NCBI GenBank assembly: GCA_012838805.1
Contig: DUON01000015.1
Location: 872-64,871 of the forward strand
Direction: 5' to 3'
DNA length: 64,000 bases
Source: Clostridiales bacterium
GTDB taxonomy: Bacteria > Bacillota > Clostridia > Christensenellales > DTU072
Below, one piece after another: positions 47,212-64,000 of this stretch. The position numbers and the translations under genes are program-made. The notes under the pieces are model-generated. The model searched no databases. It was given only the letters and a program-made list of their open reading frames with translations, and had not been told where the DNA came from. The first letter of the stretch is position 1; every line of letters starts with the position of its first letter.

Positions 47212-47751
47212 TTATGCCTCTAATAAGGCAAAAAATGTAATATCCAGTCCCTTGTATCGCATAATTACTTTGCCTTGAATGGTGGAGATGTCTTCCATTT
47301 CTTGATAATTATGGCTGTCTGAAGATGCGTTTCTATTATCTCCCAAAAAGAACATCTTGCCTGTGGGCACCTGCACTTCCATTTCCCTATATGAGGGCGG
47401 ATACATGGGTTCGTTTATATATTTTTCCTTAAGTCTTTCTCCGTTGCGCCACACCTCAAAGGCGTGAATTTCCTCATTGAATTTTATTTGTATAAGGTCG
47501 CCCTCAAGACCGATAACCCTTTTCACCAGAGGTTTTTGATAATACTCACTATCAAAAACCACAATATCCCCATGCTTGATATTTTTAGTTCTGTACACCA
47601 AAACCCTGTCCTCGTCGTATATGGTGGGCACCATGGACTTGCCCTCGACCGGATACACGACAAGCACATAACGGCTTACATAGAAAGACGCTCCCATGCA
47701 TAAAAGAAAGAATATCGCAAGTGTCAATATACCTTTTATTCTATTAGCCAT
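47212..47751 (-). CDS. lepB: Signal peptidase I
   Basis: N-terminal TM segment, VEGKSMVPTI (catalytic Ser), VKRVIGLEGD (Lys box) and GDNRNASSDSH. Confidence 0.9.
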   Translation of the reverse strand: MANRIKGILTLAIFFLLCMGASFYVSRYVLVVYPVEGKSMVPTIYDEDRVLVYRTKNIKHGDIVVFDSEYYQKPLVKRVIGLEGDLIQIKFNEEIHAFEVWRNGERLKEKYINEPMYPPSYREMEVQVPTGKMFFLGDNRNASSDSHNYQEMEDISTIQGKVIMRYKGLDITFFALLEA

Positions 47752-47763
47752 TTCTCTCCCTAT

Positions 47764-49419
47764 TTATATAAATATTATTTTTCCTATTATTACATTTTTA
47801 TTGACTATTTTTATAGCCTTTATTTTATCCCAATCTTCAAGGGGCATCATGATTGAGTTCTTGAAATCGTTTGGCAAGAATTTATGGCTTACAAAAGCGC
47901 CGTCGCCCGTTTGCATAGGACTTGTTACCGCAAAAATCTCCACTTTGTCGTCTTCTTTTGCCACAAGCTTTATTTCAAGGTCTATATCCTCATAGCTATA
48001 CGCATCAATTTGCAAAATTCTGCCCTTATTGAACGGTGCCTTGGCTCCAATCTGATAATTTATGAGTTCGCCATAATTACTCATCACACCCTTGAGCCCA
48101 AGCGGCGTAGAGGCAACCATAAGACCGCTTTTTAAGAGTATTGCCTTATCCGCTTCTTCAGCGAAAGAGCCTGTCCCCATTGCACCCTCATAAACAATTC
48201 GGGAGTCCAAATCCACTGTCTTTTTTATTTCAAATTCGGCAAGTTCCTGATAGTCTTCAAGGGAACAAAGGGCAATACCGTCATGGTATTCCACTTTACA
48301 AAAGGCAAATATCGGACCTTCTGTTACCCCCACATCAAGCTTTGCCAAGAATTGGTCGGGGCTTATTGCGTCACATACCTTTTTATGCCAATTCCGTACA
48401 AGATGGTCATATTCCCCATACGAATAATACACTGCAACTTCTTTTATGTCCTTGGACTTATCCGCCTTGACATCGGCGTATATAAGACCATCGCTTGCTC
48501 TTATTTGTGTCTTGGGATTCTTTAAGCTCTTTCTTTTGGAAAAAATATCCTCTATCCAATTCAGCGTCGTCATATAAGCTTGATGACTTATGCTGTCCGC
48601 ACTCCTTGGCGTGATGACGATATTCGCCTGATTCTCTTTTAATAACATCATAAGGTTTGAAAGTCGGTCTATATCCGCCTCTCTACCGTTTGAGCTTATG
48701 GCAATCATAATAGGCACTTGAATATGCTTGGCGTAAGCTACGGCGGCAACACCGGTCAACCAGCACATAAGCTTATGGTCGATTTCCAGTTCGTTTTTTT
48801 CGCCGTATTTGTTCAGACCTATATATTCTCTGTATCCCGCACCGTTTATACAAACAAGACCTTTTAGTCTTATATCGCTGCCCGCCACCTGCATGGCTAC
48901 TTCGGTGGCGTCTCCTATGCCCATGACAATGATATCATCAATGCCCAGCTCTTTTTTAATGAAAGTAATCGTCCTTTTGACAACCATTGAATAAAGGTAC
49001 TGGCATGTCTCTTTCGCCGTGGGGCACACTTGGCTTATATGCTCTTCGGCTTCGGCGATATTGCCATATTTCAAACTGGGCGGAAAAGTAGTCTTATATG
49101 AGATATCGTTTCCCGTACAATCGGGCACAACGACCTTATACCCCATGTCCGCAAGGTCTTTAACCACCTTTTTTTGAACTTTTTTTCTATACTCCTGCAC
49201 TATCAGGACGGCTTTTTTTCGTCTTAATTTAATATTTTGAGTTACTCTTACGCCGACTCTGACCTTTCCGTCCTCGACGGTACACGCGGTAATGGTATAT
49301 GACCTATGCAGATAAAGATTCTCTTTATATTCGTCGTTAATCAGCGTCTCTAAAGACTCTTTTTCCGCGTCATAGTCCTGCCAGACCTGCGCAGGCGTCA
49401 TAATCTTATACTTGTTCAC
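47764..49419 (-). CDS. Hypothetical protein; the N-terminal half resembles an AXE1/dienelactone-type alpha/beta hydrolase but lacks a visible nucleophile
   Basis: 551 aa. GTG start preceded by AAGGGTG. The pattern KAVLIVQEY...DDIIVMGIGDATEVAMQVAG...GLVCINGAG resembles strand-elbow-helix elements of esterases, but Gly sits where Ser is expected. Confidence 0.6.
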   Translation of the reverse strand: MNKYKIMTPAQVWQDYDAEKESLETLINDEYKENLYLHRSYTITACTVEDGKVRVGVRVTQNIKLRRKKAVLIVQEYRKKVQKKVVKDLADMGYKVVVPDCTGNDISYKTTFPPSLKYGNIAEAEEHISQVCPTAKETCQYLYSMVVKRTITFIKKELGIDDIIVMGIGDATEVAMQVAGSDIRLKGLVCINGAGYREYIGLNKYGEKNELEIDHKLMCWLTGVAAVAYAKHIQVPIMIAISSNGREADIDRLSNLMMLLKENQANIVITPRSADSISHQAYMTTLNWIEDIFSKRKSLKNPKTQIRASDGLIYADVKADKSKDIKEVAVYYSYGEYDHLVRNWHKKVCDAISPDQFLAKLDVGVTEGPIFAFCKVEYHDGIALCSLEDYQELAEFEIKKTVDLDSRIVYEGAMGTGSFAEEADKAILLKSGLMVASTPLGLKGVMSNYGELINYQIGAKAPFNKGRILQIDAYSYEDIDLEIKLVAKEDDKVEIFAVTSPMQTGDGAFVSHKFLPNDFKNSIMMPLEDWDKIKAIKIVNKNVIIGKIIFI

Positions 49420-52099: not shown

Positions 52100-53542
52100 T
52101 CAGTTTTTATATTTATTTTTTAGCTTTTTATTAGTCAATTTTCTTGCCTTTAGGTTGCCTTTGCCCACTTTTCCTAAAGCGTTTAAGAAGAATTTTGCCA
52201 CATCCAACTTGCCTTTTATTATATTAGGATTATAATCTTTGCAATAATTAATAGCGTGTTTGTCAAATATTTTGCCGAACATGCTTAATCTTTGCAAAAA
52301 TCCCGTATAGTCGGCGTTTTGGGTCCACGCCCTTTCCGCCACCGCCAAAAGCCTTGGATAGGTCATATATTCAAGTCTGTCCACATCCAGTACATGTTCT
52401 GTCCATAAGGGAGCTTCCAGACCTATCACATTTTCTTCTATATCGCTGTCTATCTGATAATTATATGTTTTTTTCAATGGCGTCATACCATGTGGATAGT
52501 CTAAATAATAACTGAAGAACGGACTAATAATAATGCCTCTATTTTTCTTTGCCTCTTTCCTGACTACCTCATTGCATTCCTTGGTCTGCCTCCAATAGTG
52601 AACGGTGATATCCCCTTCAATGTTGTCGCCAAGCATACCGTCATTCCAATTTATTACCTTTTTGCCTTTTTGGTTAAGGTATTTTACCATTTTGGTCATA
52701 AAATATCCCTGAAGCTCTTCCTCGTTCTTTAAGCCGTTGTCTTTTATCGCCTTTTGACAGTGCGGACAGTCTATCCAATACAGCTTAAGCGCTTCATCGC
52801 CGCCAAGGTGTATGTACTCATAGGGAAAGAGCTGCGCTATCTCGTCCAAGACATCATAACAAAATTCATAAGTCTTGTCCTTTCCCGCACAGGCTATATT
52901 GGGGAAAATACCGTACCCTTCGGCTACCTTTATCTTTTCTTCTGTGCATGACAAGAAAGGATAAGAAGCTATCGCGGCGGAGAAGTGTCCGGGCATGTCT
53001 ATTTCAGGTATTACTTCAATATGCCTTTCCTTACAGTATTCAACTATCTCTTTAATTTGCTCTTTTGTGTAAAATCCCTTGACCGGCGTCTTATCCCCCG
53101 CCGTCTGTTCTCTTTGAGAGCCTATCTCGGTGAGCAAGGGGTACTTGTCTATCTGCACCCTCCAGCCTTGGTCGTTCGTCAAATGCCAATGAAACATGTT
53201 TATCTTAAATAGGGCAAGCATATCTATTTGTTTCTTAATCTCTTCAATAGTGAAGAAATGTCTTGAACAGTCCAGCATATAGCCCCTGTGCGAATACTTG
53301 GGCTTGTCCTCTATCTCCAGATATGGAACAGGCAAGTTTTCTTTAAGCTGTTCAAGGGTCTTTTGAGCATAAAAAAGCCCCGCCTCGTGCTCGGCTTCTA
53401 TGACGACTTTGTCCTTAATAAAAAGTCGGTAGCCTTCCTTGCCCAGCCCCGTCTTTTTTATCTTTTTCTCTATGTTGTCTAAATTCTCAGCTTGTCCTTC
53501 AAGTATTTTTATCTTTTGCGGATATGGAATAAGTTTCAGCAT
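52100..53542 (-). CDS. Beta-N-acetylhexosaminidase (GH20)
   Basis: HRGYMLDCSRHFF, NMFHWHLTNDQGWR and YIHLGGDEA catalytic blocks. No signal peptide. Confidence 0.88.
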   Translation of the reverse strand: MLKLIPYPQKIKILEGQAENLDNIEKKIKKTGLGKEGYRLFIKDKVVIEAEHEAGLFYAQKTLEQLKENLPVPYLEIEDKPKYSHRGYMLDCSRHFFTIEEIKKQIDMLALFKINMFHWHLTNDQGWRVQIDKYPLLTEIGSQREQTAGDKTPVKGFYTKEQIKEIVEYCKERHIEVIPEIDMPGHFSAAIASYPFLSCTEEKIKVAEGYGIFPNIACAGKDKTYEFCYDVLDEIAQLFPYEYIHLGGDEALKLYWIDCPHCQKAIKDNGLKNEEELQGYFMTKMVKYLNQKGKKVINWNDGMLGDNIEGDITVHYWRQTKECNEVVRKEAKKNRGIIISPFFSYYLDYPHGMTPLKKTYNYQIDSDIEENVIGLEAPLWTEHVLDVDRLEYMTYPRLLAVAERAWTQNADYTGFLQRLSMFGKIFDKHAINYCKDYNPNIIKGKLDVAKFFLNALGKVGKGNLKARKLTNKKLKNKYKN

Positions 53543-53555
53543 TTTTTGTTCCTCC

Positions 53556-54293
53556 TTATTTTAATTTGGCGTCGGGTAGATAGATATCCCTATCCCCATC
53601 GCTTAAAATTATATTTTTAATTTCTATATTTGAGCTTCCCGTTCCTATCCTATCAAAAACCATAACAAAAAGGTCTATATCATGGTTCAAGGACATTCCC
53701 AAAGGCTTTGAATAATACAAAATACTAAAGCTTCCCTGACGAATAGACCTTAAGGATATCTCCCAATTTTCGATGCTTATGCGAATATCTTGACGGATTA
53801 AATTAGTGGTGTTATAGCTTATGTCCATCATCATTCCCTTGATGCCGGACAAATCCTCAATTTTCAGACTGGCTATGATGTCAAGCTTGTCTCCGTTTTC
53901 CTTTTCACGCAGTTGAATTCGAGCATTGGTTTCGATGTCAACGGCGTTTGTTACGATATAATTCCAAGGCGTGGTATAAAAGCCCATATATTTCGCTCTC
54001 ATTGATCTGGTCTCAGTGGGGCCCGTTGTGGTGGAGGTGTCAAACCCCTCCAGCATTGAGGGCAACACCCTTTCCACAATATCGCCTTTATTTTTTTTAA
54101 GCACAATTACAATATAAATGTTATTAAAGTCCAATTTTTCGTCCACAGCGTATACGGTCTTTAGGGAACCCTCTCTGAACTCAATATAATCTATATCATT
54201 TGGATTAATACCGCCTTTAGCGCACCCAAAAAACAAAAAAGCGGACATAGCCAGCAGTATGACAATCATCAATATATAACAGTGCTTCTTCAT
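53556..54293 (-). CDS. Lipoprotein with an Ig-like N-terminal module and a cohesin-like C-terminal module
   Basis: Lipobox LFFGC at residues 20-24. Residues ~30-115 resemble the Ig-like modules of the upstream giant protein. Residues ~120-245 form a beta-rich module (IIASLKIEDLSGIKGMMMDISYNTTNL ... DIDLFVMVFDRIGTGSSNIEIKNIILSDG) whose pattern recalls type I cohesins. Its ATG overlaps the upstream TGA (ATGA). Confidence 0.7.
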   Translation of the reverse strand: MKKHCYILMIVILLAMSAFLFFGCAKGGINPNDIDYIEFREGSLKTVYAVDEKLDFNNIYIVIVLKKNKGDIVERVLPSMLEGFDTSTTTGPTETRSMRAKYMGFYTTPWNYIVTNAVDIETNARIQLREKENGDKLDIIASLKIEDLSGIKGMMMDISYNTTNLIRQDIRISIENWEISLRSIRQGSFSILYYSKPLGMSLNHDIDLFVMVFDRIGTGSSNIEIKNIILSDGDRDIYLPDAKLK

Positions 54294-57200
54294 TGGCTAT
54301 CCTCTTCTTGTTCTAAAAGCTCTTCTTCAAGTTTTTCTACCCACTTTATAAAATCGGTTAGGGTATATCTCTTGTCGCCCGTAATGTCGCCGTAAAGCGC
54401 CGAATACTCAAGCCCCGCCAGCAAATGGTCCGCCAGAATAGGTATATCGTTTATGTCAAACACCCCGTTGCCGTTAGCGTCGCCTTTAAGGTATACGCTA
54501 AAAGTCTCCAGAACAGTATTTTCATAATTGACCACTTGCACCTTTATAGCCGAAGACAAATACCTCTCTTGATTGAGCTCGTAGTCAATGTACTCTTCAT
54601 CGGATAAAAATCTTATATCCGCATAGGTCTCTACCATATTCTTGAACTGTGACAAGGTGGCGCTCTCTTCTAAGATTATCCTTGCGTTAAGGCGGTCTAT
54701 TCTTATTGTATCAGCATCTCCTTTTGCAATCAAGATATTGCTGTCAGCTTTTTCAGCAAAATAAATCTTAAAACTTGCGGACACCCTGAACTGCGATAAG
54801 GACAGAAGTATAATCTGCGATCCATTTTTTGTGGGCGTGGAATTAAATCCCCTTAAGTCATTTGCATACTCCGACAAGGCGACGATGGTTCTTTCTCCCG
54901 TTTGGGTTATTATTGTTACCCTGCCTCCGTCCAAATCCAGCTTTTCACCATATTGATAGTGTGTCTTATTGGGCGGTTTTATGCTTATTTCTCGTGGGGC
55001 GTCAATGACCTTGACAAGGAACTGCGTAGTGTATATTCCCCTATAAGTTATATACACGGGCTGTTCTCCGGGGACGGTGTTGTTGAAGTTGGTCTGGAAT
55101 CCTTCAGTGATATAATCCCTGTCCCCGTTTATATAAATAATGACCACCGTCAAGTCAAGCTCTTCTCCCACCGTATACACGCTTTTTGAGAATTCGCTGT
55201 CCACATGAATACGCCAGATACGGTTTCTTACCTCAAAATAGTATTGCCAATAATCGCCAGTGACCTTATAGGTTATCGTAACCAATTGAACGCCTATTAC
55301 GGTATTGTCAAAGCCCTCCACCGTGAACTCTTCATAGTTAAAGTAAATGGGATCGGTCAATTCGTCGCTTAAAAACCTGAGTCTTATGCTAAAAGAGCTT
55401 AAATCCAAAGGCTCGTTGACTTCATAAAATATCTTGGGGGAAGAAAAGACAAATATCTCTTTTATGTCGTCCAAAACCTCAACCCAAATATTACAAGACA
55501 ATTCTTTATAGCGTATTTGGACAAGCTGAAGCCCTTCTTGCTTATTGTTAAAGTCCACGAAGAACCAGTCTTGAACTATGCTTTCCACTCCGCTTGCCAT
55601 AACGGCATATACTGTTATATCGGGGTCTTGACCATAAAGCGCCGTCACATTCTGGATATGGGTATAAATCTCCAATTCATAATCATAGAATGAAACATCT
55701 TTAATTGCGGTAAAGCCCATCAGCGTGAACGATGCAGTTTGAGGGTTCAAAGAGGTATTGTCAATGCCCAGCATGACATCGTCTATTTCAATGTTATAAT
55801 CCATATTGTTCATTCTTATTTTTATTTTCAAATCGGTTTGGCTTGCGTACGGAAAAGTACTTCCCCCCACAATCTCCAAAGACTGTATTTGGCTTATTCC
55901 AAAAATAGGCAGGTCCGAAACGGTGTAGATAGAATAATAATCAACATAGTTGCTATGATTGACTTTTATATCCATATTTATAGTGTCCTCTCCTTCGGAT
56001 ATCTCATCCACTCCCTTATTAAAGCTCAATATCATATTCTCAAAGAATTGGTTTTGTCCGTCAAAGCCCACCTCTATAACCGCTCCGCCCGTAAAAGTCA
56101 CCCTTACGGATATGCTCCTATCCGGCGACTTGTTAATATCCACAACCGCCCTGTCCTCCAAAGTCATAGATGTTATCTCCACCTCCTCGACTTCGTCAAG
56201 AACATTCACAGTGACTTGACCTTCATATACATTGTCAAAATCAGGGTTATAGTACCTTATCCTTATGTTTTGGATACCCAATTTATATTTATTGTAGTCC
56301 AGTATCGTGACCCTTGAATCTATACCCGGCTGATAGTTCTCGTCAATATCCACGATATCTTGCCTTATTTGACTACCTGATTTCATATTTACCTTAAGGT
56401 GTCCGTTGCCGAAGATTTCTTCGCCGTATTTGAAGTTTACTTTGTCAAGTACGACCTCTATATTTGTGACTGCGTCCAAAACATCTATGACATATGTGAC
56501 AAAATGCTCCTTGACGAAACCTGCCTCATCCGCTATGGGGTCGGTATATTTTAGCGTCACAATCGTGGAGCCTAAAAGATGAGTATTATAAATAACTTCC
56601 AAATGACCTTCGGCAAAAAGCTGAGACAATGGAAAGGAGCTCTGCCCGTCAAAACCTCGCGTGATTTTCAAATATCCATATCTTAAATCAATCTCATCGC
56701 CGTACTCATAAATTCTTTTTATCTCAGAAAGATTCATAAGCTCACAGCTTATCGCCATATCAAATACGCTTATTGGGAATTTTACTGTATTGCTGACTCC
56801 GTCAACGGCTATTTCCACTTGTCTCTCCCCCAATTGGCTGGTAGCCGTATAATAGTTGACCACCATTTCGGGAACAATATCAGTTTCAAAACTCTCGCCG
56901 CCGACCAAATAAATTCTTACTCTGCCCCCTGACAAGTCAAGCTTTTCTTGATATGTATATACGCTTTTCCTGGGATTTGCCGACAATGTAATATTAGAGG
57001 CCGTCTCATACGCATAAACATTTACGGTATCAAGTATTCTTTGTTGCTGGGTTTGAGAGTCGAATACTCTTATTTGTATTTGCACAGGCTGTGATGCGGC
57101 CGCAACGCCAGTGACAAAACCGTTTTCGTCCACTCGAACACATTCGGGATTTGAAGAAGAATAAGTTATATTCTTTCTGTCGGTGGCGTTATATGGAGAA

Positions 57201-60200
57201 ATCCTTAAATCCAATCTTAGCGTCTGACCTACCTTTACGCCATAAGTATCTTGGGGAGCTTGTGCATTGATTAATTCAATAAAAGGAAGCGGGTTGACAG
57301 AAGGGAGGTTGAGCCTTGCGTCATTGTTTCTTCCCGCTCCGATTATCTTGCCGTCTTTTGTTATGGCTATGGTATGCTGTCCGCCTGCAGCAATCATGCC
57401 TACATTCTCAAATTCTTCCACATCCGTTTGCCCAAAAGAATTGTTGCCGATTGCAAAAGCTTTGCCTTTTGAATTTATGGCGACTATATGTTCGTCACTT
57501 GCGGCAATGTCCACTATGTCATACCATTGAGAAATAACACTCATATCGCTGACATATGCGCATTGTCCCGCATAATGGACTCTACCCGAATCGTCAAGCC
57601 CAAGCGTAAAACCCTCTTTCGCAACTATCTTGACTATATGGCGCCAGTCTTGCACATTGCACTGACCTCTATCATTGAGTCCCTTGGCGTCCAACAGACC
57701 ATTTTTGTATATGGCGACCGTATGGGTACGGCTTGTCGCCACTTGGTAGACACCGCTTTGGGAATTGAAGAAACCTGTCTGATTGTATTGGTTGTCCCCT
57801 ACAGCAACAGTCCCACCGTCGTACTTTATGCCCACTATTGTTCTTCCGCTGGTTGCGACATAAGCGATATCTGTCCAATTTATGGCGTTGGAGTCTGCCA
57901 TACTGCCCGCCACCAGCACTTCGCCGTCGGGCGTCACTCCTACCGTTGTGTCGCCGCCCGCCGCTATGTATACGATATTTCCCCAAAGCTCCACACCTGT
58001 TTGTCCCTCAAAATTGTCACCCATGGCATAAACCGTACCTTTGTTATTTAGTATCACGCTATGGTTGTTGCCCGCCGCTATCATGGAATTAGTGTTTATA
58101 TGTTGAATGACTTCCACTACCATTATCACTTCCAAGTCAGACCCTCTATGCTTTGCGGTGATTGTTGCGATTCCTTCATTGTGAGCGGTCATAAACCCAT
58201 CTGGGGTTACGCTGACAACTATTTCGTTGTTGGAGGAATAGCTTATTTTCCTATATGAGGCGTTTGCGGGGAATACCCCCACTTCCAATTGGTATGTATC
58301 GTCTTCTTTAAGCACTCTTCTTGTGAAAGGCGCGATTAAGGAAGAGACCTCTACATAATTATCTTGATAATAGATTATGTTATCTTGGATATTATTGGTT
58401 TGGTTTTGGTTGTCACCAGCATATAGCAACTTGCCGTCCTCTCTTAAAGCCACGCTATGGCGTTCTCCCGCCGCTATGTCGATAATATCGAAAAACAAGG
58501 CGGTATTCAATTGTCCAAAGGCGTTGTTTCCGACCGCAAGCACTCTGCCCGATTTGGTTAAGCCAAGAAGGTGCTTTGTCCCAGCATAAATTTTTGTTAT
58601 GTCCTCCCAACCCTCCGTCTGTGCTTTATCATTGAGCTCTCCAGTGACTACCACCTTTCCATCCCTTGTCAGTCCGGCGGTGAACTGGTCTCCGCAGGTT
58701 ATTTGAATAATATTTCTCCATGAGCTGAACCCGTCCTGATTCAGATTTTCTCCCGCAATATCCACCGTACCGTCTTTTTTCAAAGCGGCTATATGCTCTT
58801 TGCCTACGGCGATATCCACTATATTGGTCCAACCGCTTACCTTATCCAAATCCATCCTGCCCGCAGACACTACTTGACCGTTAAGGGTAAGTCCGAAAGA
58901 CACTCTGTCCCCAGCGGCTACTTTAATTATATTTTCCCAAGAGTTGATATTGTTTTCGCCGGATTGGAAATTCCCGGCAGCAGCGACCTTAAGGTTGCTT
59001 TTTATATATAGGATATGCTGCACTCCCGCACTTGCGGACAATACATCTTGCAAGACAAGACCGTTAAGTTCTGAAATGTTGGAGCTCACAAACGCCTTTC
59101 CGTCATCTCTAACCGCTATGGTAGCATTGATAGAAGCTTCTACGCTGGTGGTATAATTTATGTTTGTCATCTCAATGGACTGCCAGGTGGTCTGGGAATT
59201 GTCAATGCTATATTTTCCTAAATAGATATAGTCATTGTCGCTATCCACGGCGTACAATTCCATATCGCAAGGTTCTTCAAAGCTCTGCCACGCGCTTTCA
59301 TAGAATACGCTTGACAAAAAGCCGCTGCCCTTATGGTTTATCACAAACCTCACATCAAAAGATCTGAATCCGTTGTTATAGGATTGAACAAACTTGGCTC
59401 TATCAAGCCTTATTGAAGCGATTTGATGGTTGTTGTCGGATTTAAGCTTAATTATTAAATCGTTAAGGAAAGAGATATTGAAGTCTTGAATAACTTCAAG
59501 CTTGGCATACACACCGCTAAATACCTGGTCATTATTTAACTTGACATTATTCAAGGAGAGTTTATCCTTAAAATAATCATCATGTATATTGTTATCGCCG
59601 GATAGCCTAACCTCAAAAGTAATCTGCTGGTCGTTTATGGCAAGTGCTGTTATTATTACGCCGCTATTTTGTCCATTGGTATAGAAAAGCGTAGTGTCGT
59701 CATAACTTGAAGACGGCTTTTGTTCAAGGCTTACCCCCACCGAAGAGAAATCGGGATTTTGGGGCGATAAATAAGCCTTATTAAGGTTTGCCCGCGACCT
59801 TACCGAGTCCGAACCTACAGTCACGGCATTGGGTCTGAAAATATACACTTCATCAGGGTTGGATGCCCTATTCTTAAGAGCTTCCGAATTGCCATATACG
59901 CCTTGCTTGACTCTGTATACTATCAATCCCGAACCCGGGAGCGTGGAATCGTAAGATGTAACATTGTTGTTCCGATATTCCACCATAAAATATTCGTCGG
60001 GTCTTTGAGTGTTGATGCGATACGCCAAAACCTGATTTTTTGAAGTTGTGGTCACAGGCGACAGTCTATATATGCCATTAAATTCAATGGTTTCTATTTG
60101 ATTTTCGCCCAAAACATTGAGATACTTATGCCTCAAATGCGTAATCATAAACTGCGGGATGTCCCCCTCCCAATGCATAAGGTCCCAATCTCCGACAGAT

Positions 60201-61243
60201 GCCCAATTGTCTTCATAATGGTATAAGTCGGGAACTCCCAGAACATGTGCAAATTCATGCGCCAAAAGACCAACCGTCAGCTGTTCAAGGAAATTAAATG
60301 AATACTTTTTGACCTTTTTGTTCCCTATTGTGGCGGGCGCACCGTTGGAGATCTCGTCCAAATCCCATGAATGTGGCCAAAGCATGCCCCCCCATTCGCT
60401 GTAAGGGGAGCCGGAAATAAGGAAGTTCACCGCGTCCACATATCCGTCTTCAGTAATGTCTATATCCAGACCCTCAAAGTCGAAGTATTCCCTTGCCGCG
60501 CGGACAGCGTTGTTCAAAAGCGTCCTTTCTCTGACCAATCTGCTTGAAGAATTTCTTTTCAATTGATAATAGCTTCTGGGCTGGGAATCTTGATAAACAA
60601 AAATCTCCCCGTTCTTAATTGGATAGATATTATGTACAAGTATCTCGCCGTAAGATAATTGCTGATAATAGTCCGTCAAAGAATTTGTCGGTCCTGACAT
60701 AACGGAGTCGATATAGTTTTTGTTTATGTTGATATTTTCGCCCGCAAAGCTGATGAATATCACGAAATTTACTATTGGTTTGGATGAAGAGGCACTTTGA
60801 TAAAGGGTGGAAGCACTGTTTTCGGGATAGCTTGTGATGAGGTCGGGATTTTTGGCAAAGTCAATATCCGACACGGTCATTTTCTGCAATGCCAAGATTT
60901 TTTGACGGTGGTCTTTATATCTTATCGGCGTGGGGGTGGGTCTTCCGTTCCTGTTTGTGGCATAGACCAAATAACCGTTGTCTCTTAACAGTATGTAACC
61001 GTTCTCATCATGTAAGTAGTTAAAGTATTGATCCCCCGTAGCGTAAAAATGCGCCACAGAGCCGTCCGCCTCGACCATGGTTTGCTTAAAGGTGTTTTTG
61101 CCCACGATTTCGGTAGGTCTTGGCTGGGCGTCATAGCCTTGGCTTGCAACAAAAGCAAGAGCTATCAATATAATTAAGGACATTACTACCAGTATGGCTC
61201 TTTTTCTTTTGACTTTCACGCTTCCTCCTTTATTAGTCCCCAT
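54290..61243 (-). CDS. Giant secreted multidomain protein: M6 (InhA-like) metalloprotease, two RCC1-like propeller blocks, Big_2-like domains, about nine Ig-like modules and a C-terminal dockerin
   Basis: 2317 aa with signal peptide KRKRAILVVMSLIILIALAFVASQ. Zinc site LLAHEFAHVLGVPDLYH in an InhA-like context. About 37-aa W..I..IAAG..H..AL..DG.V.A.G.N..GQ repeats. YSSNNEIVVSVTPDGFMTAHNEGIATITA is Big_2-like. Repeated Y..GE.LDL.GG.V modules each end in V.V.D. It terminates in GDANGNGVFDINDIPILADHLL...GDITGDKRYTLTDFIKWV. Confidence 0.9.
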   Translation of the reverse strand: MGTNKGGSVKVKRKRAILVVMSLIILIALAFVASQGYDAQPRPTEIVGKNTFKQTMVEADGSVAHFYATGDQYFNYLHDENGYILLRDNGYLVYATNRNGRPTPTPIRYKDHRQKILALQKMTVSDIDFAKNPDLITSYPENSASTLYQSASSSKPIVNFVIFISFAGENININKNYIDSVMSGPTNSLTDYYQQLSYGEILVHNIYPIKNGEIFVYQDSQPRSYYQLKRNSSSRLVRERTLLNNAVRAAREYFDFEGLDIDITEDGYVDAVNFLISGSPYSEWGGMLWPHSWDLDEISNGAPATIGNKKVKKYSFNFLEQLTVGLLAHEFAHVLGVPDLYHYEDNWASVGDWDLMHWEGDIPQFMITHLRHKYLNVLGENQIETIEFNGIYRLSPVTTTSKNQVLAYRINTQRPDEYFMVEYRNNNVTSYDSTLPGSGLIVYRVKQGVYGNSEALKNRASNPDEVYIFRPNAVTVGSDSVRSRANLNKAYLSPQNPDFSSVGVSLEQKPSSSYDDTTLFYTNGQNSGVIITALAINDQQITFEVRLSGDNNIHDDYFKDKLSLNNVKLNNDQVFSGVYAKLEVIQDFNISFLNDLIIKLKSDNNHQIASIRLDRAKFVQSYNNGFRSFDVRFVINHKGSGFLSSVFYESAWQSFEEPCDMELYAVDSDNDYIYLGKYSIDNSQTTWQSIEMTNINYTTSVEASINATIAVRDDGKAFVSSNISELNGLVLQDVLSASAGVQHILYIKSNLKVAAAGNFQSGENNINSWENIIKVAAGDRVSFGLTLNGQVVSAGRMDLDKVSGWTNIVDIAVGKEHIAALKKDGTVDIAGENLNQDGFSSWRNIIQITCGDQFTAGLTRDGKVVVTGELNDKAQTEGWEDITKIYAGTKHLLGLTKSGRVLAVGNNAFGQLNTALFFDIIDIAAGERHSVALREDGKLLYAGDNQNQTNNIQDNIIYYQDNYVEVSSLIAPFTRRVLKEDDTYQLEVGVFPANASYRKISYSSNNEIVVSVTPDGFMTAHNEGIATITAKHRGSDLEVIMVVEVIQHINTNSMIAAGNNHSVILNNKGTVYAMGDNFEGQTGVELWGNIVYIAAGGDTTVGVTPDGEVLVAGSMADSNAINWTDIAYVATSGRTIVGIKYDGGTVAVGDNQYNQTGFFNSQSGVYQVATSRTHTVAIYKNGLLDAKGLNDRGQCNVQDWRHIVKIVAKEGFTLGLDDSGRVHYAGQCAYVSDMSVISQWYDIVDIAASDEHIVAINSKGKAFAIGNNSFGQTDVEEFENVGMIAAGGQHTIAITKDGKIIGAGRNNDARLNLPSVNPLPFIELINAQAPQDTYGVKVGQTLRLDLRISPYNATDRKNITYSSSNPECVRVDENGFVTGVAAASQPVQIQIRVFDSQTQQQRILDTVNVYAYETASNITLSANPRKSVYTYQEKLDLSGGRVRIYLVGGESFETDIVPEMVVNYYTATSQLGERQVEIAVDGVSNTVKFPISVFDMAISCELMNLSEIKRIYEYGDEIDLRYGYLKITRGFDGQSSFPLSQLFAEGHLEVIYNTHLLGSTIVTLKYTDPIADEAGFVKEHFVTYVIDVLDAVTNIEVVLDKVNFKYGEEIFGNGHLKVNMKSGSQIRQDIVDIDENYQPGIDSRVTILDYNKYKLGIQNIRIRYYNPDFDNVYEGQVTVNVLDEVEEVEITSMTLEDRAVVDINKSPDRSISVRVTFTGGAVIEVGFDGQNQFFENMILSFNKGVDEISEGEDTINMDIKVNHSNYVDYYSIYTVSDLPIFGISQIQSLEIVGGSTFPYASQTDLKIKIRMNNMDYNIEIDDVMLGIDNTSLNPQTASFTLMGFTAIKDVSFYDYELEIYTHIQNVTALYGQDPDITVYAVMASGVESIVQDWFFVDFNNKQEGLQLVQIRYKELSCNIWVEVLDDIKEIFVFSSPKIFYEVNEPLDLSSFSIRLRFLSDELTDPIYFNYEEFTVEGFDNTVIGVQLVTITYKVTGDYWQYYFEVRNRIWRIHVDSEFSKSVYTVGEELDLTVVIIYINGDRDYITEGFQTNFNNTVPGEQPVYITYRGIYTTQFLVKVIDAPREISIKPPNKTHYQYGEKLDLDGGRVTIITQTGERTIVALSEYANDLRGFNSTPTKNGSQIILLSLSQFRVSASFKIYFAEKADSNILIAKGDADTIRIDRLNARIILEESATLSQFKNMVETYADIRFLSDEEYIDYELNQERYLSSAIKVQVVNYENTVLETFSVYLKGDANGNGVFDINDIPILADHLLAGLEYSALYGDITGDKRYTLTDFIKWVEKLEEELLEQEEDSQ
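54329..54484 (-). other. Dockerin-like duplicated Ca-binding segment at the C-terminus of the giant protein
   Basis: Two EF-hand-like loops, DANGNGVFDIND and DITGDKRYTLTD, are each followed by a helix. Asp/Asn occupy loop positions 1, 3, 5 and 12. Confidence 0.7.
54758..57031 (-). repeat. Array of about nine 75-95-aa Ig-like (Big_3-like) modules
   Basis: Each module starts near Y.(Y/V)GE.LDL and ends in a V.V(L/I)D-like strand, for example KSVYTYQEKLDLSGGRVRIY...ISVFD, KSVYTVGEELDLTVVIIY...VKVID and KTHYQYGEKLDLDGGRVTII. Module number and borders were estimated by eye. Confidence 0.6.
57314..59146 (-). repeat. Two blocks of RCC1-like ~37-aa repeats (residues ~700-945 and ~1050-1310) separated by a Big_2-like domain
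   Basis: Successive units include NIIKVAAGDRVSFGLTLNGQVVSAGR, NIVDIAVGKEHIAALKKDGTVDIAGEN, DIIDIAAGERHSVALREDGKLLYAGDN and VGMIAAGGQHTIAITKDGKIIGAGRN. Confidence 0.75.
60245..60259 (-). other. HEFAH zinc-binding motif of the M6-like protease domain
   Basis: catgaatttgcacat on the minus strand, residues 329-333. Confidence 0.85.
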
Positions 61244-61301: not shown

Positions 61302-64000
61302 TTACAAAGTCTCTATATCCGTGACATTGTCCATGAATATGTTCTCCAGTAGGATATCATAATGCGCTACGCTAAGAGACGCTAATCCCGTATTGTTAGC
61401 ATAGAAAGAACAATTTATGGCAGTAAACAAGGACATCTGCAAGTAAACCCCATGTCCTCTCGTAAACTCAAACCTTGAGCCTTCGATATGCGTATTGCCT
61501 TTGTTCGCCATCAATGCCGCATAGTTGTTACTGTTGAATCTGCTGTTTACGACCTCAAGAGTCTGCCCTCCGTCCATATAGACCCCGATTGAGAACCCTT
61601 CGATATAGGTTCTATCCAGCCTCAAAAGTCCCGCAAACATCGGAGCAGTGACTATGGCTCGTGCGTTTTGGGCTTCAGACATACCGCCGGGAGCAAGGAT
61701 TTCCTCATTCTTAAAGTAACTTCTCTTAATCTCAACCGAGGACGCGTTTCTATTCACATAGACGGAAGTATGGTTGGCATCTCCATTGAATCTTATGATA
61801 TCAATGGTTACCGCGCCCCTTTCTATTCTTATCGAATTGAATACGGTGGCAATATTTTGGCTGTTGTCTTTTACTTCGTTCATGGTTTTGTCATGCATAT
61901 CTTCAATGGACGAAAAGTCGCCGTATTCTGCGGATGTGTCATAACTTCCTATCAAGGTGATGCCCACATTTTTATCCACCACAAAGTCGCCATAGAAGCC
62001 GGGTGCAAGATACCAAACCTGGGTATCGCCCTCTTGCATAAGTCCGTATCTTTGATGAAGCTCTTCCTCGTCGTGAATGATTATGGCGTCTTGCACAGCT
62101 TTATTGATTCTGTATATGCCGTTTATCGCCGTAATGTTATAATTTCCAAAAAGCACGGGATCAAGGTTTATTACATCGTCTTCGGGTCTTTCGGCGTTCA
62201 GATAATACACCTTGTCACTGTCAAAGGTCTGTTTGAAGCCTACAAAACGGATGGGATATTCTCCGACCATATGCCTTGAGGTCACTTCGCTTTCGCACAC
62301 AAGATATCCAAACATAGAGGGCAGGTCGTCTCCCACTATGCCATAAAGCGAAATACTTGAGGCGAAATCTCTTACTTCCTGTAAATAATCGCTTTCAACC
62401 GTTCCCACCTCAATGCTCATTTCTTTAGGCAGAATATTTATGGTCTGCGCCTCAACCGTCCATGAGGGATAGTTGTTTCCGCCTTGAACAACGGCTGAGA
62501 AGGTGTATTGTCCAGCGTTTCTGATATAGTCCACAGGCTCGCCGTCTTTCCAGAACTTATACTCTATGGTGACGCCGGCAGGAAGATTTCCATTGGCGTC
62601 GTGCAAGCCCTCGCACCTTGGAAGAATGGGCTTGCCGGTATATGTCATCCAATTGGCGAAGTTCTGGTTTATCTGCGCCCTTCTGATACTTATTGTTATG
62701 ACCACTTCCTCGCCTTCTTTCATGACATAATTGGGGTTGGTTTCAGGAGGAATGGTCAGGGTTATTTCATAAGTGCCCGCCTCTCTTGGTCTGGTCTCAA
62801 TAATCATGTCGTTGTTTTCCATGTCCACATACCAGAACTCAAAAGCATAATCTATTTCCATAACGGTGTCGCCCGGAATTATTCTATTGTCCCACGCCAT
62901 AGCCTTGGCAGCGGTCAGGATTGCCTGCCTTTGCTCATAAGAAGTATCGGGGTAATGGTATTCGGGGAAGAAAGTAAGTATGACATCGTCAAGTATGGCG
63001 TTCATCTTTTGCAAAGCATAGATATTAGAGAAAATAGTCTGCATAAGATTATCAAACGCCCTTGCCTTTGCCTGCTCTAAGGTGAAATTGGCGTTTTCCC
63101 TCATGGCATAATCCAAAAGTGCGTTTTTGTCGTTTAAGGTTTCAGGCCAATTGGGTATCTTGACTTCGGGAAGTCCGGATATCTCGGGCATATGGATTTT
63201 GCCGTCATAGATATAGCTTCTTTCGATCACCCTGTCATCGGGAGAGATTTGGTTCCAAACAATGGATTTGACCTCGATTAAGACCAGCGCCTTTTGTTCG
63301 GCGTCATATTCGTCATAGAGCGGGAAGTACATATTGATAGCACTTTGAAGCGTATTGGCAAGCATTTGTTGAGCAGACGAATAAACGATAGACTCCAAGT
63401 GGTCGTACGCCATTGCCTTAACCTGCATAATAAAGAAATCTTTTTCTTCTCCCGCCAAGCTTTGATTTAGTATTAGCATATATTCTGCGTTGAGGATATC
63501 CATTTTTTCTTCGACGGAAAGCGGCCAGCCGGATATAAGCGGATAATCCCTTAAGCCCGTGGGTATAATCTCGTCCCAAACGGTTGCTTTGGTTTCTATT
63601 ATGATAAAAGATTTCATGCTATCCGACATTGAATCAAAATTGGGATAGTTCTCATAAATCAAAGTCTGAACTCTATTGTCAATAATATCTTGAATAAAGG
63701 CTTCCATGATTTCATAGAGGTTGTCTAAAGCCTGAGTCTTAACCAATTCCTCGTCCTCGTTCTCTCCGTTTTCATAAAGCTGGTCTTTTGCAATATCCAA
63801 TAGCTCGTCTTTTTTCGCTTGGGACAGCGGCCAATGGTCTACAAGGGGTCTTTCCTCAAAGCCTGTCGGCAAAATCTCCGTCCAAATAATAGCCTTTGCG
63901 GATACCAATATAGCTGCTTGTTCTTGCGGGGAACTGTTTTCATAATTGGGGAACTGCTCTTCAAGTACCTGTTCAAGCTTCCAATCCAGAAGCTCCTTCC
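61302..64000 (-). CDS. Large surface/secreted protein (C-terminal part): ~110-aa tandem repeats, MBG-like modules and a C-terminal right-handed beta-helix; the 5' end lies beyond the window
   Basis: The ORF-track Met at 63908 is an internal TTG, and the frame stays open to 64000 (..EQFPNYENSSPQEQAAILVSAKAIIW..). MBG-like strings are present (GEYPIRFVGF..., NYNITAINGIYRINKA). Beta-helix-type repeats appear in VNSRFNSNNYAALMANKGNTHIEGSRFEFTRGHGVYL...INCSFYANNTG. Confidence 0.8.
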   Translation of the reverse strand, partial: KELLDWKLEQVLEEQFPNYENSSPQEQAAILVSAKAIIWTEILPTGFEERPLVDHWPLSQAKKDELLDIAKDQLYENGENEDEELVKTQALDNLYEIMEAFIQDIIDNRVQTLIYENYPNFDSMSDSMKSFIIIETKATVWDEIIPTGLRDYPLISGWPLSVEEKMDILNAEYMLILNQSLAGEEKDFFIMQVKAMAYDHLESIVYSSAQQMLANTLQSAINMYFPLYDEYDAEQKALVLIEVKSIVWNQISPDDRVIERSYIYDGKIHMPEISGLPEVKIPNWPETLNDKNALLDYAMRENANFTLEQAKARAFDNLMQTIFSNIYALQKMNAILDDVILTFFPEYHYPDTSYEQRQAILTAAKAMAWDNRIIPGDTVMEIDYAFEFWYVDMENNDMIIETRPREAGTYEITLTIPPETNPNYVMKEGEEVVITISIRRAQINQNFANWMTYTGKPILPRCEGLHDANGNLPAGVTIEYKFWKDGEPVDYIRNAGQYTFSAVVQGGNNYPSWTVEAQTINILPKEMSIEVGTVESDYLQEVRDFASSISLYGIVGDDLPSMFGYLVCESEVTSRHMVGEYPIRFVGFKQTFDSDKVYYLNAERPEDDVINLDPVLFGNYNITAINGIYRINKAVQDAIIIHDEEELHQRYGLMQEGDTQVWYLAPGFYGDFVVDKNVGITLIGSYDTSAEYGDFSSIEDMHDKTMNEVKDNSQNIATVFNSIRIERGAVTIDIIRFNGDANHTSVYVNRNASSVEIKRSYFKNEEILAPGGMSEAQNARAIVTAPMFAGLLRLDRTYIEGFSIGVYMDGGQTLEVVNSRFNSNNYAALMANKGNTHIEGSRFEFTRGHGVYLQMSLFTAINCSFYANNTGLASLSVAHYDILLENIFMDNVTDIETL

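What the first reader, a model, noticed from the sequence alone, without database searches (positions are those of the whole stretch)
53556..61243. Non-cellulosomal dockerin/cohesin-like pair: a 2317-aa protease-propeller-Ig protein translationally coupled to a lipoprotein anchor
The giant ORF ends in a duplicated Ca-loop/helix segment that fits a type I dockerin (54329..54484). Its TGA overlaps the ATG of the next gene (ATGA at 54290..54293). That gene encodes a lipoprotein (LFFGC lipobox) with one Ig-like module and a ~125-aa beta-rich C-terminal module whose hydrophobic pattern recalls cohesins. This would give a two-component surface-display device: a lipid-anchored cohesin holding a secreted M6 metalloprotease. 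No glycoside hydrolase or scaffoldin is involved. The cargo combines an InhA-type protease, two propellers and about nine Ig modules, which suggests adhesion to or degradation of host or matrix proteins.
Basis: partly seen in the sequence, partly recalled or inferred. Interest (0 to 1): 0.7.

Follow-up and report, generated by a model that had tools for sequence, protein, structure and literature searches.

The report
Lipoprotein cohesin tethering a dockerin protease
Two overlapping genes of an uncultured Christensenellales bacterium encode a giant surface metalloprotease ending in a dockerin and a small membrane lipoprotein carrying a cohesin, most likely a plug-and-socket tether borrowed from cellulosomes and here holding a protease on the cell; binding itself is untested.

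Summary
ORFs, the ATGA overlap and the dockerin coordinates are as stated. The 2317-aa protein has an M6 metalloprotease domain above NCBIfam and Pfam cut-offs, two seven-bladed RCC1 propellers, 2 Big_2 and 9 Big_3-like modules, and a C-terminal dockerin.

The window's dockerin is below Pfam's cut-off on its own. All 9 orthologues match Dockerin_1, both Ca loops are canonical in 40/40 family members, and the model superposes on type I dockerins.

The 245-aa protein has a lipobox; its Cys is the only invariant column in 79 relatives. It also has one Big_3-like module and a C-terminal module whose model matches cohesins (top 20 PDB hits). Its family profile hits multi-cohesin scaffoldins.

In every related locus checked (about 27, all from Christensenellales or unclassified Clostridia), a dockerin-ending M6 protease gene directly precedes the cohesin lipoprotein gene. 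In one metagenome contig the two form a single ORF.

The best reading is a one-to-one, lipid-anchored cohesin-dockerin tether for a surface protease. Binding, Ca dependence and lipidation were not tested.

Non-cellulosomal cohesin-dockerin pairs are known, and databases already name both proteins. No paper I found describes this arrangement. I rate it a new variant of a known kind, of moderate interest.

The parts
54290..61243 (-). Gene for the 2317-aa M6 protease / propeller / Ig / dockerin protein. Database copy P0157 starts 8 codons later.
   Evidence: ORF list, translation, Pfam, identical database protein P0157.
61142..61243 (-). N-terminal export signal or signal-anchor, residues 1-34: KVKRKR followed by 18 hydrophobic residues.
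   Evidence: Sequence. All homologues share a charged n-region plus 17-22 hydrophobic residues without a consistent AxA site. Cleavage is not resolved.
59912..60763 (-). M6 (InhA-type) metalloprotease catalytic domain, residues 161-444. The HEFAH zinc motif lies at residues 329-333 (60245..60259).
   Evidence: TIGR03296 at 119.7 bits, above the 110.8 cut-off, full model length. Pfam Peptidase_M6 at 25.8 bits, above 22. Motif position.
58394..59131 (-). RCC1-like seven-bladed propeller 1, about residues 705-950.
   Evidence: Pfam WD40_RLD 768-947 and RCC1_2 stretches. Seven blade motifs read in the sequence.
58154..58318 (-). Big_2 module 1, residues 976-1030.
   Evidence: Pfam Big_2 best stretch.
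57239..58096 (-). RCC1-like seven-bladed propeller 2, about residues 1050-1335.
   Evidence: Pfam RCC1_2 best stretch at 1055-1081, 10 stretches in all. Seven blade motifs read in the sequence.
56999..57172 (-). Big_2 / Big-like module 2, about residues 1358-1415.
   Evidence: Pfam Big_2 (2 stretches) and Big-like 1358-1391.
54749..56992 (-). Stalk of Big_3-like repeats, residues 1418-2165. Eight repeats, plus an unassigned 100-aa stretch at 1685-1787.
   Evidence: Iterated HMM built on the orthologues, repeat E-values 4e-12 to 7e-22. Pfam Big_3.
54485..54736 (-). Beta-rich module abutting the dockerin with no linker, residues 2170-2253. It is a weak ninth Big_3-like repeat.
   Evidence: HMM E 2e-9. 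AF2 model of residues 2159-2317 with pLDDT 93.1 and pTM 0.84.
54329..54484 (-). Dockerin, residues 2254-2305. Ca loops DANGNGVFDIND and DITGDKRYTLTD, each followed by a helix.
   Evidence: Pfam Dockerin_1 at 18.3 bits, below the 22.9 cut-off, for this copy. 9/9 orthologues hit it, best 6.5e-6. The profile's top PDB hits are dockerins. The model superposes on type I dockerins at rmsd 1.5-2.3 A.
54293..54328 (-). Acidic C-terminal tail EEELLEQEEDSQ. It contains the ribosome-binding site GAGGA (54300..54304) of the next gene.
   Evidence: Sequence.
53556..54293 (-). Gene for the 245-aa lipoprotein. Its ATG overlaps the TGA of the large gene (ATGA at 54290..54293).
   Evidence: ORF list, sequence. 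The overlap is kept in 7 of 9 orthologous loci.
54222..54293 (-). Lipoprotein signal peptide and lipobox (LFFGC, Cys24).
   Evidence: Sequence. 80 of 86 family members carry a lipobox. The Cys is the only invariant column in a 79-sequence alignment.
53949..54197 (-). Big_3-like module of the lipoprotein, residues 33-115. Same repeat type as the stalk of the large protein.
   Evidence: The HMM built from the large protein's repeats hits it at 3e-8, and at 7e-10 in orthologues. The AF2 model shows a beta module.
53559..53936 (-). Cohesin module of the lipoprotein, residues 120-245. All-beta, nine to ten strands, no helix.
   Evidence: AF2 pLDDT 85.9. The top 20 Foldseek PDB hits are all cohesins, E down to 6e-7 and TM up to 0.75. 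7/9 family members hit Pfam Cohesin, best 4.1e-10. The profile hits multi-cohesin scaffoldins.

Best explanation
This is a two-gene surface-tethering device. Step 1 rests on sequence features (gene packing and RBS are observed, co-transcription and coupling are inferred); steps 2-5 are inferred.

1. The two genes are co-transcribed and translationally coupled (ATGA overlap, with the RBS inside the end of the first gene).
2. Both products are exported by Sec. The small one is lipidated on Cys24 and stays on the outer face of the cytoplasmic membrane. It presents one Big_3-like spacer and one type I-like cohesin.
3. The large protein folds its C-terminal dockerin around two Ca2+ ions and plugs it into that cohesin, one to one.
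4. The large protein is then held by its C-terminus. A stalk of about nine Big_3-like and two Big_2 modules carries two RCC1 propellers, probably ligand- or substrate-binding. The M6 zinc protease sits at the far, N-terminal end.
5. The protease cleaves extracellular proteins or peptides near the cell. The substrate is unknown.

The second dockerin repeat is conserved at the usual contact positions (10-11 = L-T), while the first repeat varies. This suggests a single rather than a dual binding mode.
For: **Module identities**
- Dockerin.
- Cohesin.
- Lipobox.
- M6 protease.

**Coupling.** The ATGA overlap and RBS are seen. No terminator-like site lies between the genes on the coding strand.

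**Conserved pairing.** A dockerin-ending M6 protease gene directly precedes the Big_3+cohesin lipoprotein gene in:
- 9 of 9 orthologous loci;
- 3 of 3 more distant Christensenella loci;
- 13 of 13 further species genomes. There the protease is a short form of about 950 aa without propellers, so only protease, Big_3, dockerin and the lipoprotein are constant;
- two short metagenome contigs.

The pair is written as a single ORF in P0081/L014.

**Family-wide conservation.**
- 47 of 49 large-protein homologues carry the C-terminal dockerin.
- Ca-ligand positions 1, 5 and 12 are kept in nearly all of 40 distinct dockerins, in both repeats (40/40, except position 5 of repeat 2, 39/40). Positions 3 and 9 are kept in 36-40 of 40.

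**One partner in reach.** Only one dockerin and one cohesin are found in the 64-kb window.
Against: - No binding, Ca-dependence or lipidation data exist.
- The window's own dockerin scores below Pfam's cut-off (18.3 against 22.9 bits). Its second loop has Thr at position 3 and Lys at position 6 instead of Asn/Asp and Gly.
- The window's own cohesin gets no Pfam hit.
- The hydrophobic N-terminus of the large protein is long (18 residues) and lacks a clear cleavage site. The protein might therefore already be membrane-bound at its N-terminus.
- One syntenic relative (L064) has lost the second dockerin repeat yet keeps the lipoprotein.
- Whole genomes were not surveyed for other cohesins or dockerins.
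Confidence: 0.7

Rival explanations
1. The large protein is anchored by its own uncleaved N-terminal signal-anchor. The cohesin-dockerin contact is then a second attachment that folds the C-terminus back to the membrane, or links neighbouring molecules into a surface lattice, rather than being the anchor.
For: The N-terminal hydrophobic stretch is 17-22 residues long in all homologues, with no conserved AxA-type cleavage site. The module identities are the same as in the main explanation.
Against: Gram-positive Sec signal peptides are often this long. A dedicated lipoprotein partner conserved in every locus is hard to explain if the cargo is already anchored. No signal-peptide predictor was available.
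Confidence: 0.15
2. The adjacency reflects shared regulation only. The dockerin docks onto a cohesin encoded elsewhere, such as a scaffoldin, and the lipoprotein cohesin recruits other dockerin proteins, as in an open many-to-many cellulosome-like network.
For: The lipoprotein profile also matches multi-cohesin scaffoldins of other organisms. Dockerins with similar loops occur on many proteins of Ruminococcus, Bacteroidales and others. Whole genomes were not surveyed.
Against: In the Christensenellales genomes hit by the dockerin scan, only this locus matched, though the pattern was narrow. The window holds no other cohesin or dockerin. Adjacency is without exception in about 27 loci, and one natural fusion exists. 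The pair diverges much faster than its flanks: 24-30% identity against 48-62%.
Confidence: 0.1
3. The two modules no longer bind each other. The lipoprotein acts as a maturation factor, inhibitor or chaperone of the protease, or as an unrelated substrate-binding lipoprotein, and the cohesin-like fold is simply a beta-sandwich.
For: The window's cohesin has no direct Pfam hit and the window's dockerin is sub-threshold. One relative has a half-degenerate dockerin.
Against: The Ca ligands of both loops are kept in nearly all of 40 distinct dockerins, which argues for selection on a functional dockerin. The cohesin fold match is specific: the top 20 hits are all cohesins, several of them solved in complex with dockerins.
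Confidence: 0.05

Closest known systems
Type I cohesin-dockerin pairs of cellulosomes (C. thermocellum 1OHZ/2CCL, C. cellulolyticum 2VN5/2VN6, C. acetobutylicum CaCohA2-Doc0917 6KGC-6KGF)
   Same: Same two folds. The cohesin model matches these cohesins (E 6e-7 to 3e-4). The dockerin model superposes on these dockerins (rmsd 1.5-2.3 A). The dockerin has duplicated Ca-loop/helix segments with canonical ligands. The cohesin has no helix or flaps, as in type I.
   Different: - There is no scaffoldin with several cohesins, no CBM and no dockerin-bearing glycoside hydrolase.
- The cargo is a protease.
- The cohesin sits on a lipoprotein.
- The pair is encoded one-to-one by overlapping genes.
- The two dockerin repeats are asymmetric at contact positions, unlike the symmetric dual-binding type I dockerins.
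- The dockerin follows a beta module without a linker.
Single-cohesin anchoring proteins of cellulosome producers (C. thermocellum OlpA/OlpC 3UL4/4DH2, SdbA; R. flavefaciens ScaE)
   Same: One cohesin on a cell-bound protein serves to hold a dockerin-bearing partner at the surface. The OlpA and OlpC cohesins are among the structural matches, and their dockerins among the profile and fold matches.
   Different: Those anchors use SLH domains or sortase signals (own knowledge). Here the anchor is a lipobox Cys, invariant in the family. No paper I found describes a lipoprotein-borne cohesin.
Non-cellulosomal cohesin-dockerin modules (Peer et al. 2009 survey; C. perfringens GH84C/GH33 cohesins 2JH2, 2VO8, 2W1N, 2O4E; A. 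fulgidus cohesin 2XDH)
   Same: The modules occur outside plant cell-wall degradation, usually in single copies. The C. perfringens and A. fulgidus cohesins are among the best structural matches (ranks 5-15, TM up to 0.75).
   Different: In C. perfringens the modules link secreted glycoside hydrolases and toxins to each other (own knowledge). Here a protease is linked to a membrane lipoprotein, and the two genes are always adjacent. The survey paper could not be read here.
Minimal cellulosome-like system ClcC/ClcD of Cellulosilyticum lentocellum (PMC13487519)
   Same: A single-cohesin protein and a single dockerin enzyme form a reduced one-to-one system.
   Different: [quoted passage not shown] This one has a lipoprotein and an M6 protease.
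M6 metalloproteases (InhA of Bacillus thuringiensis/cereus/anthracis, PrtV of Vibrio cholerae)
   Same: Same catalytic domain family, with the HEXXH motif and TIGR03296 above its cut-off.
   Different: InhA and PrtV are about 800-900 aa secreted enzymes without dockerin, RCC1 propellers or a Big_3 stalk (own knowledge). No paper in the library combines dockerin with M6 or InhA. No solved structure is detectable by sequence for the N-terminal 697 residues.

Membership tests
Cohesin (Pfam PF00963) | Sequence match to the cohesin profile | tested here: inconclusive
   The window protein itself gets no hit even at E 10. However, 7 of 9 close homologues hit PF00963, best 4.1e-10. The family profile finds proteins with 5-8 Pfam cohesin domains at library-wide E down to 1e-32. 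Membership holds at the family level.
Cohesin (Pfam PF00963) | Nine-stranded beta-sandwich (jelly-roll) fold | tested here: met
   In the AF2 model (pLDDT 85.9), residues 120-244 are all-beta. The top 20 Foldseek PDB hits are all cohesins, with E 6e-7 to 3.5e-5 and target TM up to 0.75.
Cohesin (Pfam PF00963) | Binds a dockerin | not testable with these tools
Indirect support comes from invariable adjacency and one natural fusion.
Dockerin (Pfam PF00404) | Sequence match to the dockerin profile | tested here: inconclusive
   The window copy scores 18.3 bits (E 0.0027), below the 22.9 cut-off. All 9 orthologues hit the model, best 6.5e-6. The family profile's best PDB matches are dockerins (2y3n_B at 8e-6, 3ul4_B, 5m2o_B, 1ohz_B). 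Several homologues have PF00404 precomputed.
Dockerin (Pfam PF00404) | Two tandem segments, each a 12-residue Ca loop with ligands at positions 1, 3, 5, 9 and 12, followed by a helix | tested here: met
   The window copy has DANGNGVFDIND and DITGDKRYTLTD. Across 40 distinct family dockerins, positions 1 and 12 are Asp in 40/40 in both repeats. Position 5 is D/N in 39-40 of 40, position 3 is D/N in 37-38 of 40, and position 9 is T/D/N/S in 36-40 of 40. Loop-to-loop spacing is 28-33 residues. The window's second loop has Thr at position 3.
Dockerin (Pfam PF00404) | Three-helix dockerin fold | tested here: met
   AF2 model of residues 2159-2317 has pLDDT 93.1, with helices at model residues 108-118, 121-127 and 137-158. 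The highest-probability Foldseek matches (0.93-0.97) are dockerins 4dh2_B, 5lxv_B, 2vn5_B/D and 2vn6_B, at rmsd 1.5-2.3 A over 53-58 residues and target TM 0.63-0.78. Their E-values are weak (0.4-0.9) because the domain is small.
Dockerin (Pfam PF00404) | Ca2+-dependent folding and binding | not testable with these tools
   Only the ligand residues can be read.
Cellulosome | Scaffoldin with two or more cohesins, plus at least one dockerin-bearing glycoside hydrolase (definition as quoted in PMC13487519) | tested here: not met
   There is one cohesin on a 245-aa lipoprotein, and the only dockerin in the window is on a protease. The adjacent GH20 has no signal peptide and no dockerin.
Type II/III X-dockerin dyad | An Ig-like X module packed rigidly against the dockerin and resembling known X modules | tested here: inconclusive
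   A beta module abuts the dockerin with no linker, and the two-module model has pTM 0.84. However, no solved X-Doc chain matched across both modules.
M6 metallopeptidase (InhA family) | M6 catalytic domain profile above the curated cut-off, and a HEXXH zinc motif | tested here: met
   TIGR03296 scores 119.7 bits (cut-off 110.8) over model positions 1-286 of 286. Pfam PF05547 scores 25.8 bits (cut-off 22). HEFAHVLGVPD lies at residues 329-339. Activity was not tested.
Bacterial lipoprotein | Signal peptide ending in a lipobox with an invariant Cys | tested here: met
   The window protein has LFFGC with Cys24. 80 of 86 relatives carry a lipobox. The Cys is the sole invariant column of a 79-sequence alignment. 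Lipidation itself cannot be tested here.

The most novel reading that the evidence does not exclude
Christensenellales may use an order-wide, dedicated, one-to-one cohesin-dockerin plug with a lipid-anchored socket as a distinct way to attach a large protease stalk to a Gram-positive cell. This would be an anchoring mode beside sortase, SLH, LysM and direct lipidation. Pair members diverge much faster than neighbouring genes, so the family could be a natural series of mutually orthogonal cohesin-dockerin pairs.
Probability: 0.5. Interest if true: 0.6.

Novelty: new variant of a known kind. Interest (0 to 1): 0.5.

Why it matters
Cohesin-dockerin binding is the classic assembly principle of cellulosomes and a widely used tool in protein engineering. 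Its role outside fibre degradation is poorly documented.

This locus gives a clean, minimal and testable case: one socket on a lipoprotein, one plug on a protease, and overlapping genes. It is conserved through an order that includes gut bacteria of current interest.

If the pair binds, three things follow:
- It explains how these organisms hold a very large protease at the cell surface.
- It adds a lipoprotein-based variant to the list of cohesin anchors.
- It offers many naturally diverged pairs for specificity studies and synthetic scaffolds.

It does not change the known principle.

Tried and rejected
- **Direct Pfam scan of the lipoprotein and its C-terminal module.** No cohesin hit, even at E 10.
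- **Sequence searches of the lipoprotein against PDB.** Only noise came back: a WNK1 fragment, and a scaffoldin at E 0.5. The fold comparison was needed.
- **Modelling the complex.** The structure tool returns no coordinates, so the natural fusion P0081 would not have been readable either.
- **Upstream very large protein as a second dockerin protein.** Rejected: it ends in a beta-helix, not a dockerin.
- **P0203 as a paralogue in the same genome as P0004.** I considered whether this pointed to a cassette swap. Rejected: the flanking genes are only 48-62% identical, so it is simply a more distant species.
- **Genome scan with the 79-sequence alignment.** It failed for lack of a conserved stretch. 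A 20-sequence subset worked.
- **Peer et al. 2009.** The paper could not be read.
- **X-Doc dyad reading.** No solved X-Doc structure matched both modules.

Full report
**1. What is in the sequence**

The minus strand carries a tight run of genes. A 2317-aa ORF lies at 54290..61243 and a 245-aa ORF at 53556..54293.

At the junction the sequence reads GAGGATAGCCAATGAAG. The TGA of the first gene overlaps the ATG of the second (ATGA, 54290..54293). A GAGGA ribosome-binding site lies 6 nt upstream, inside the end of the first gene. No terminator-like site on the coding strand separates these genes or their neighbours.

**2. The large protein**

- Pfam finds Peptidase_M6 (25.8 bits, cut-off 22), RCC1_2 (10 stretches), WD40_RLD, Big_2 (2 stretches) and Big_3 (2 stretches).
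- NCBIfam's M6 domain model TIGR03296 matches end to end at residues 161-444 with 119.7 bits (cut-off 110.8).
- The zinc motif HEFAH is at residues 329-333.
- Reading the sequence gives two groups of seven RCC1-type blades, at about residues 705-950 and 1050-1335.
- An HMM iterated on the full-length orthologues finds nine Big_3-like repeats between residues 1418 and 2240.

The order from N- to C-terminus is therefore: export signal or anchor, M6 protease, about 250 unassigned residues, propeller 1, Big_2, propeller 2, Big_2, the Big_3-like stalk, dockerin, and a 12-residue acidic tail.

**3. The dockerin**

- On its own this copy scores 18.3 bits on Pfam Dockerin_1, below the 22.9 cut-off.
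- The segment is conserved in all nine orthologous loci. All nine hit Dockerin_1, best 6.5e-6.
- A profile of the nine finds solved dockerins first: 2y3n_B at 8e-6, then 3ul4_B, 5m2o_B, 5lxv_B and 1ohz_B.
- Of 49 large-protein homologues, 47 carry a C-terminal dockerin by a local HMM.
- Among 40 distinct dockerins, Asp at loop positions 1 and 12 is invariant in both repeats. Positions 3, 5 and 9 carry oxygen-donor residues in 36-40 of 40.
- An AlphaFold2 model of residues 2159-2317 is confident (pLDDT 93.1, pTM 0.84).
- Its helical part superposes on type I dockerins (2vn6_B, 2vn5_B/D, 4dh2_B) and on a Ruminococcus flavefaciens dockerin (5lxv_B), at 1.5-2.3 A over 53-58 residues. Foldseek probability is 0.93-0.97, although E-values are weak for so small a domain.

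The window copy has Thr at position 3 and Lys at position 6 of the second loop. This is rare in the family.

**4. The small protein**

It begins with a lipoprotein signal, MKKHCYILMIVILLAMSAFLFFGC.

An exhaustive profile search found 412 relatives at E up to 1e-3. About 86 of them have the same 210-275-aa, two-module length. Of these, 80 carry a lipobox. In a 79-sequence alignment the lipobox Cys is the only invariant column.

Residues 33-115 are a Big_3-like module of the same type as the stalk repeats of the large protein (E 3e-8 with the stalk HMM).

Residues 120-245 get no Pfam hit directly. Three lines of evidence still identify them as a cohesin:
- Seven of nine close homologues hit Pfam Cohesin, best 4.1e-10, and NCBI names one 'cohesin domain-containing protein'.
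- The AlphaFold2 model (pLDDT 85.9) is all-beta there. Its top 20 PDB matches are all cohesins, several solved in complex with dockerins, with E down to 6e-7 and target TM up to 0.75.
- The family profile also retrieves proteins that Pfam shows to hold 5-8 cohesin domains, one of them with CBM2 modules.

The absence of a helix or flaps fits type I rather than type II cohesins (the classification is from own knowledge).

**5. Linkage elsewhere**

The nearest genomes are metagenome-assembled Christensenellales, from a Clostridiales bacterium DTU072, an uncultured Christensenella sp. and a Christensenellales MAG.

The gene order is kept in all nine orthologous loci. It runs: a protein of about 6300 aa, the M6-dockerin protein, the cohesin lipoprotein, GH20, a P-type ATPase, a 545-aa protein, an S26 signal peptidase, SpoIIE and TilS. 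Seven of the nine keep the ATGA-type overlap.

- Three more distant Christensenella loci found through the dockerin have the lipoprotein gene directly downstream. The 22 dockerin loci from other taxa do not.
- Thirteen further species genomes found through the lipoprotein all have a dockerin-ending M6 protease ORF directly upstream. There it is a short form of about 930-1000 aa without propellers.
- Two short metagenome contigs show the same junction.
- In one JGI contig the two are a single 2343-aa ORF, P0081. Whether this is a true fusion or a lost stop codon cannot be told from one contig.

The constant core is therefore M6 protease, Big_3 repeats, dockerin, and the Big_3-cohesin lipoprotein.

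Between two syntenic species the ATPase is 62% identical and GH20 48%. The large protein is only 30% identical and the lipoprotein 24%. Fast divergence of this kind is expected for surface proteins.

**6. Most likely mechanism**

The two products are made together and exported. The lipoprotein stays on the membrane through Cys24. The dockerin, folded around Ca2+, plugs into the cohesin.

The large protein then stands on its C-terminus, with the Ig-like stalk carrying the propellers and placing the protease outermost. The module identities and the linkage are shown above. Binding, Ca dependence, lipidation, topology and substrate are inferred.

Positions 10-11 of the second dockerin repeat are conserved (L in 36/40, T in 24/40), whereas the first repeat varies. 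This hints at a single binding mode through the second repeat.

**7. Rivals and weak points**

- The N-terminal hydrophobic stretch may be an uncleaved anchor.
- Other cohesins or dockerins elsewhere in the genome were not excluded.
- One relative has lost the second dockerin repeat.
- The complex could not be modelled.

**8. Comparison with what is known**

This is not a cellulosome: there is no multi-cohesin scaffoldin and no dockerin-bearing glycoside hydrolase (definition quoted).

It works like the single-cohesin anchoring proteins of cellulosome producers, and like the non-cellulosomal cohesin-dockerin contacts of Clostridium perfringens. It differs in having a lipid anchor, a protease cargo and an obligate one-to-one gene pair.

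Databases already label the two proteins 'cohesin domain-containing protein' and 'M6 family metalloprotease domain-containing protein'. Full-text searches found no paper that links dockerins with M6 proteases, cohesins with lipoproteins, or either module specifically with Christensenellales.

**9. Verdict**

This is a new variant of a known kind, of moderate interest, with simple decisive experiments available.

Noticed in passing
window 61302..64000 (-), runs off the window end: This is the C-terminal 899 residues of a very large protein; its orthologues are about 6330-6340 aa with no Pfam hit on record. It has repeated helical units of about 100 aa (recurring 'WPL' motif) followed by a right-handed beta-helix. 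It always lies directly upstream of the protease gene and has no dockerin.
   Followed up: partly
window 52100..53542 (-): A GH20 beta-N-acetylhexosaminidase without a signal peptide starts 13 nt after the lipoprotein gene. It keeps this position in the orthologues and in about half of the distant loci, including short-form ones. It may be a cytoplasmic partner in use of glycopeptide or amino-sugar products.
   Followed up: partly
L014 535..7566 (P0081, JGI metagenome 3300042620): A single 2343-aa ORF joins the M6-propeller-Big-dockerin protein to the lipoprotein, with its signal peptide retained, through a linker of about 80 aa. It may be a natural fusion or a lost stop codon. The downstream genes differ (aminotransferase IV, RecX).
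   Followed up: partly
P0166-P0197 C-termini (homologues, not in the window): Many distant homologues carry 25-35 extra residues after the dockerin, with a recurring motif such as NAARAFIAPADGTFGRKRYV or VAKTIIATPSRLKGKENKYE. The function is unknown. The window protein has an acidic tail instead.
   Followed up: no
L045-L057 (13 GTDB species genomes): A short form of the protease, about 930-1000 aa (M6, Big_3 repeats, dockerin; no RCC1 propellers), pairs with the same kind of lipoprotein. The propellers are therefore an accessory insertion of the long form.
   Followed up: partly
L064 6001..13780 (P0203 locus): A syntenic relative has a dockerin that keeps only the first Ca-loop repeat, while the 267-aa cohesin lipoprotein is intact.
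   Followed up: partly
window 47212..49419 (-): A 551-aa protein with no Pfam family on record in its orthologues and an S26 signal peptidase gene are conserved a few genes downstream of the pair, before SpoIIE and TilS.
   Followed up: no
L042 91..4400 (Oscillospiraceae MAG): A 1034-aa dockerin-ending ORF is directly followed by a 435-aa ORF with a weak cohesin-like match (E 7e-5). This may be an independent adjacent dockerin/cohesin pair in another family.
   Followed up: no
L058, L059, L061: Proteins made of 7 to 17 tandem Big_3-like repeats of the same type occur in Clostridia, Lachnospiraceae and Acholeplasmatales MAGs. One starts with a lipoprotein-like signal.
   Followed up: no
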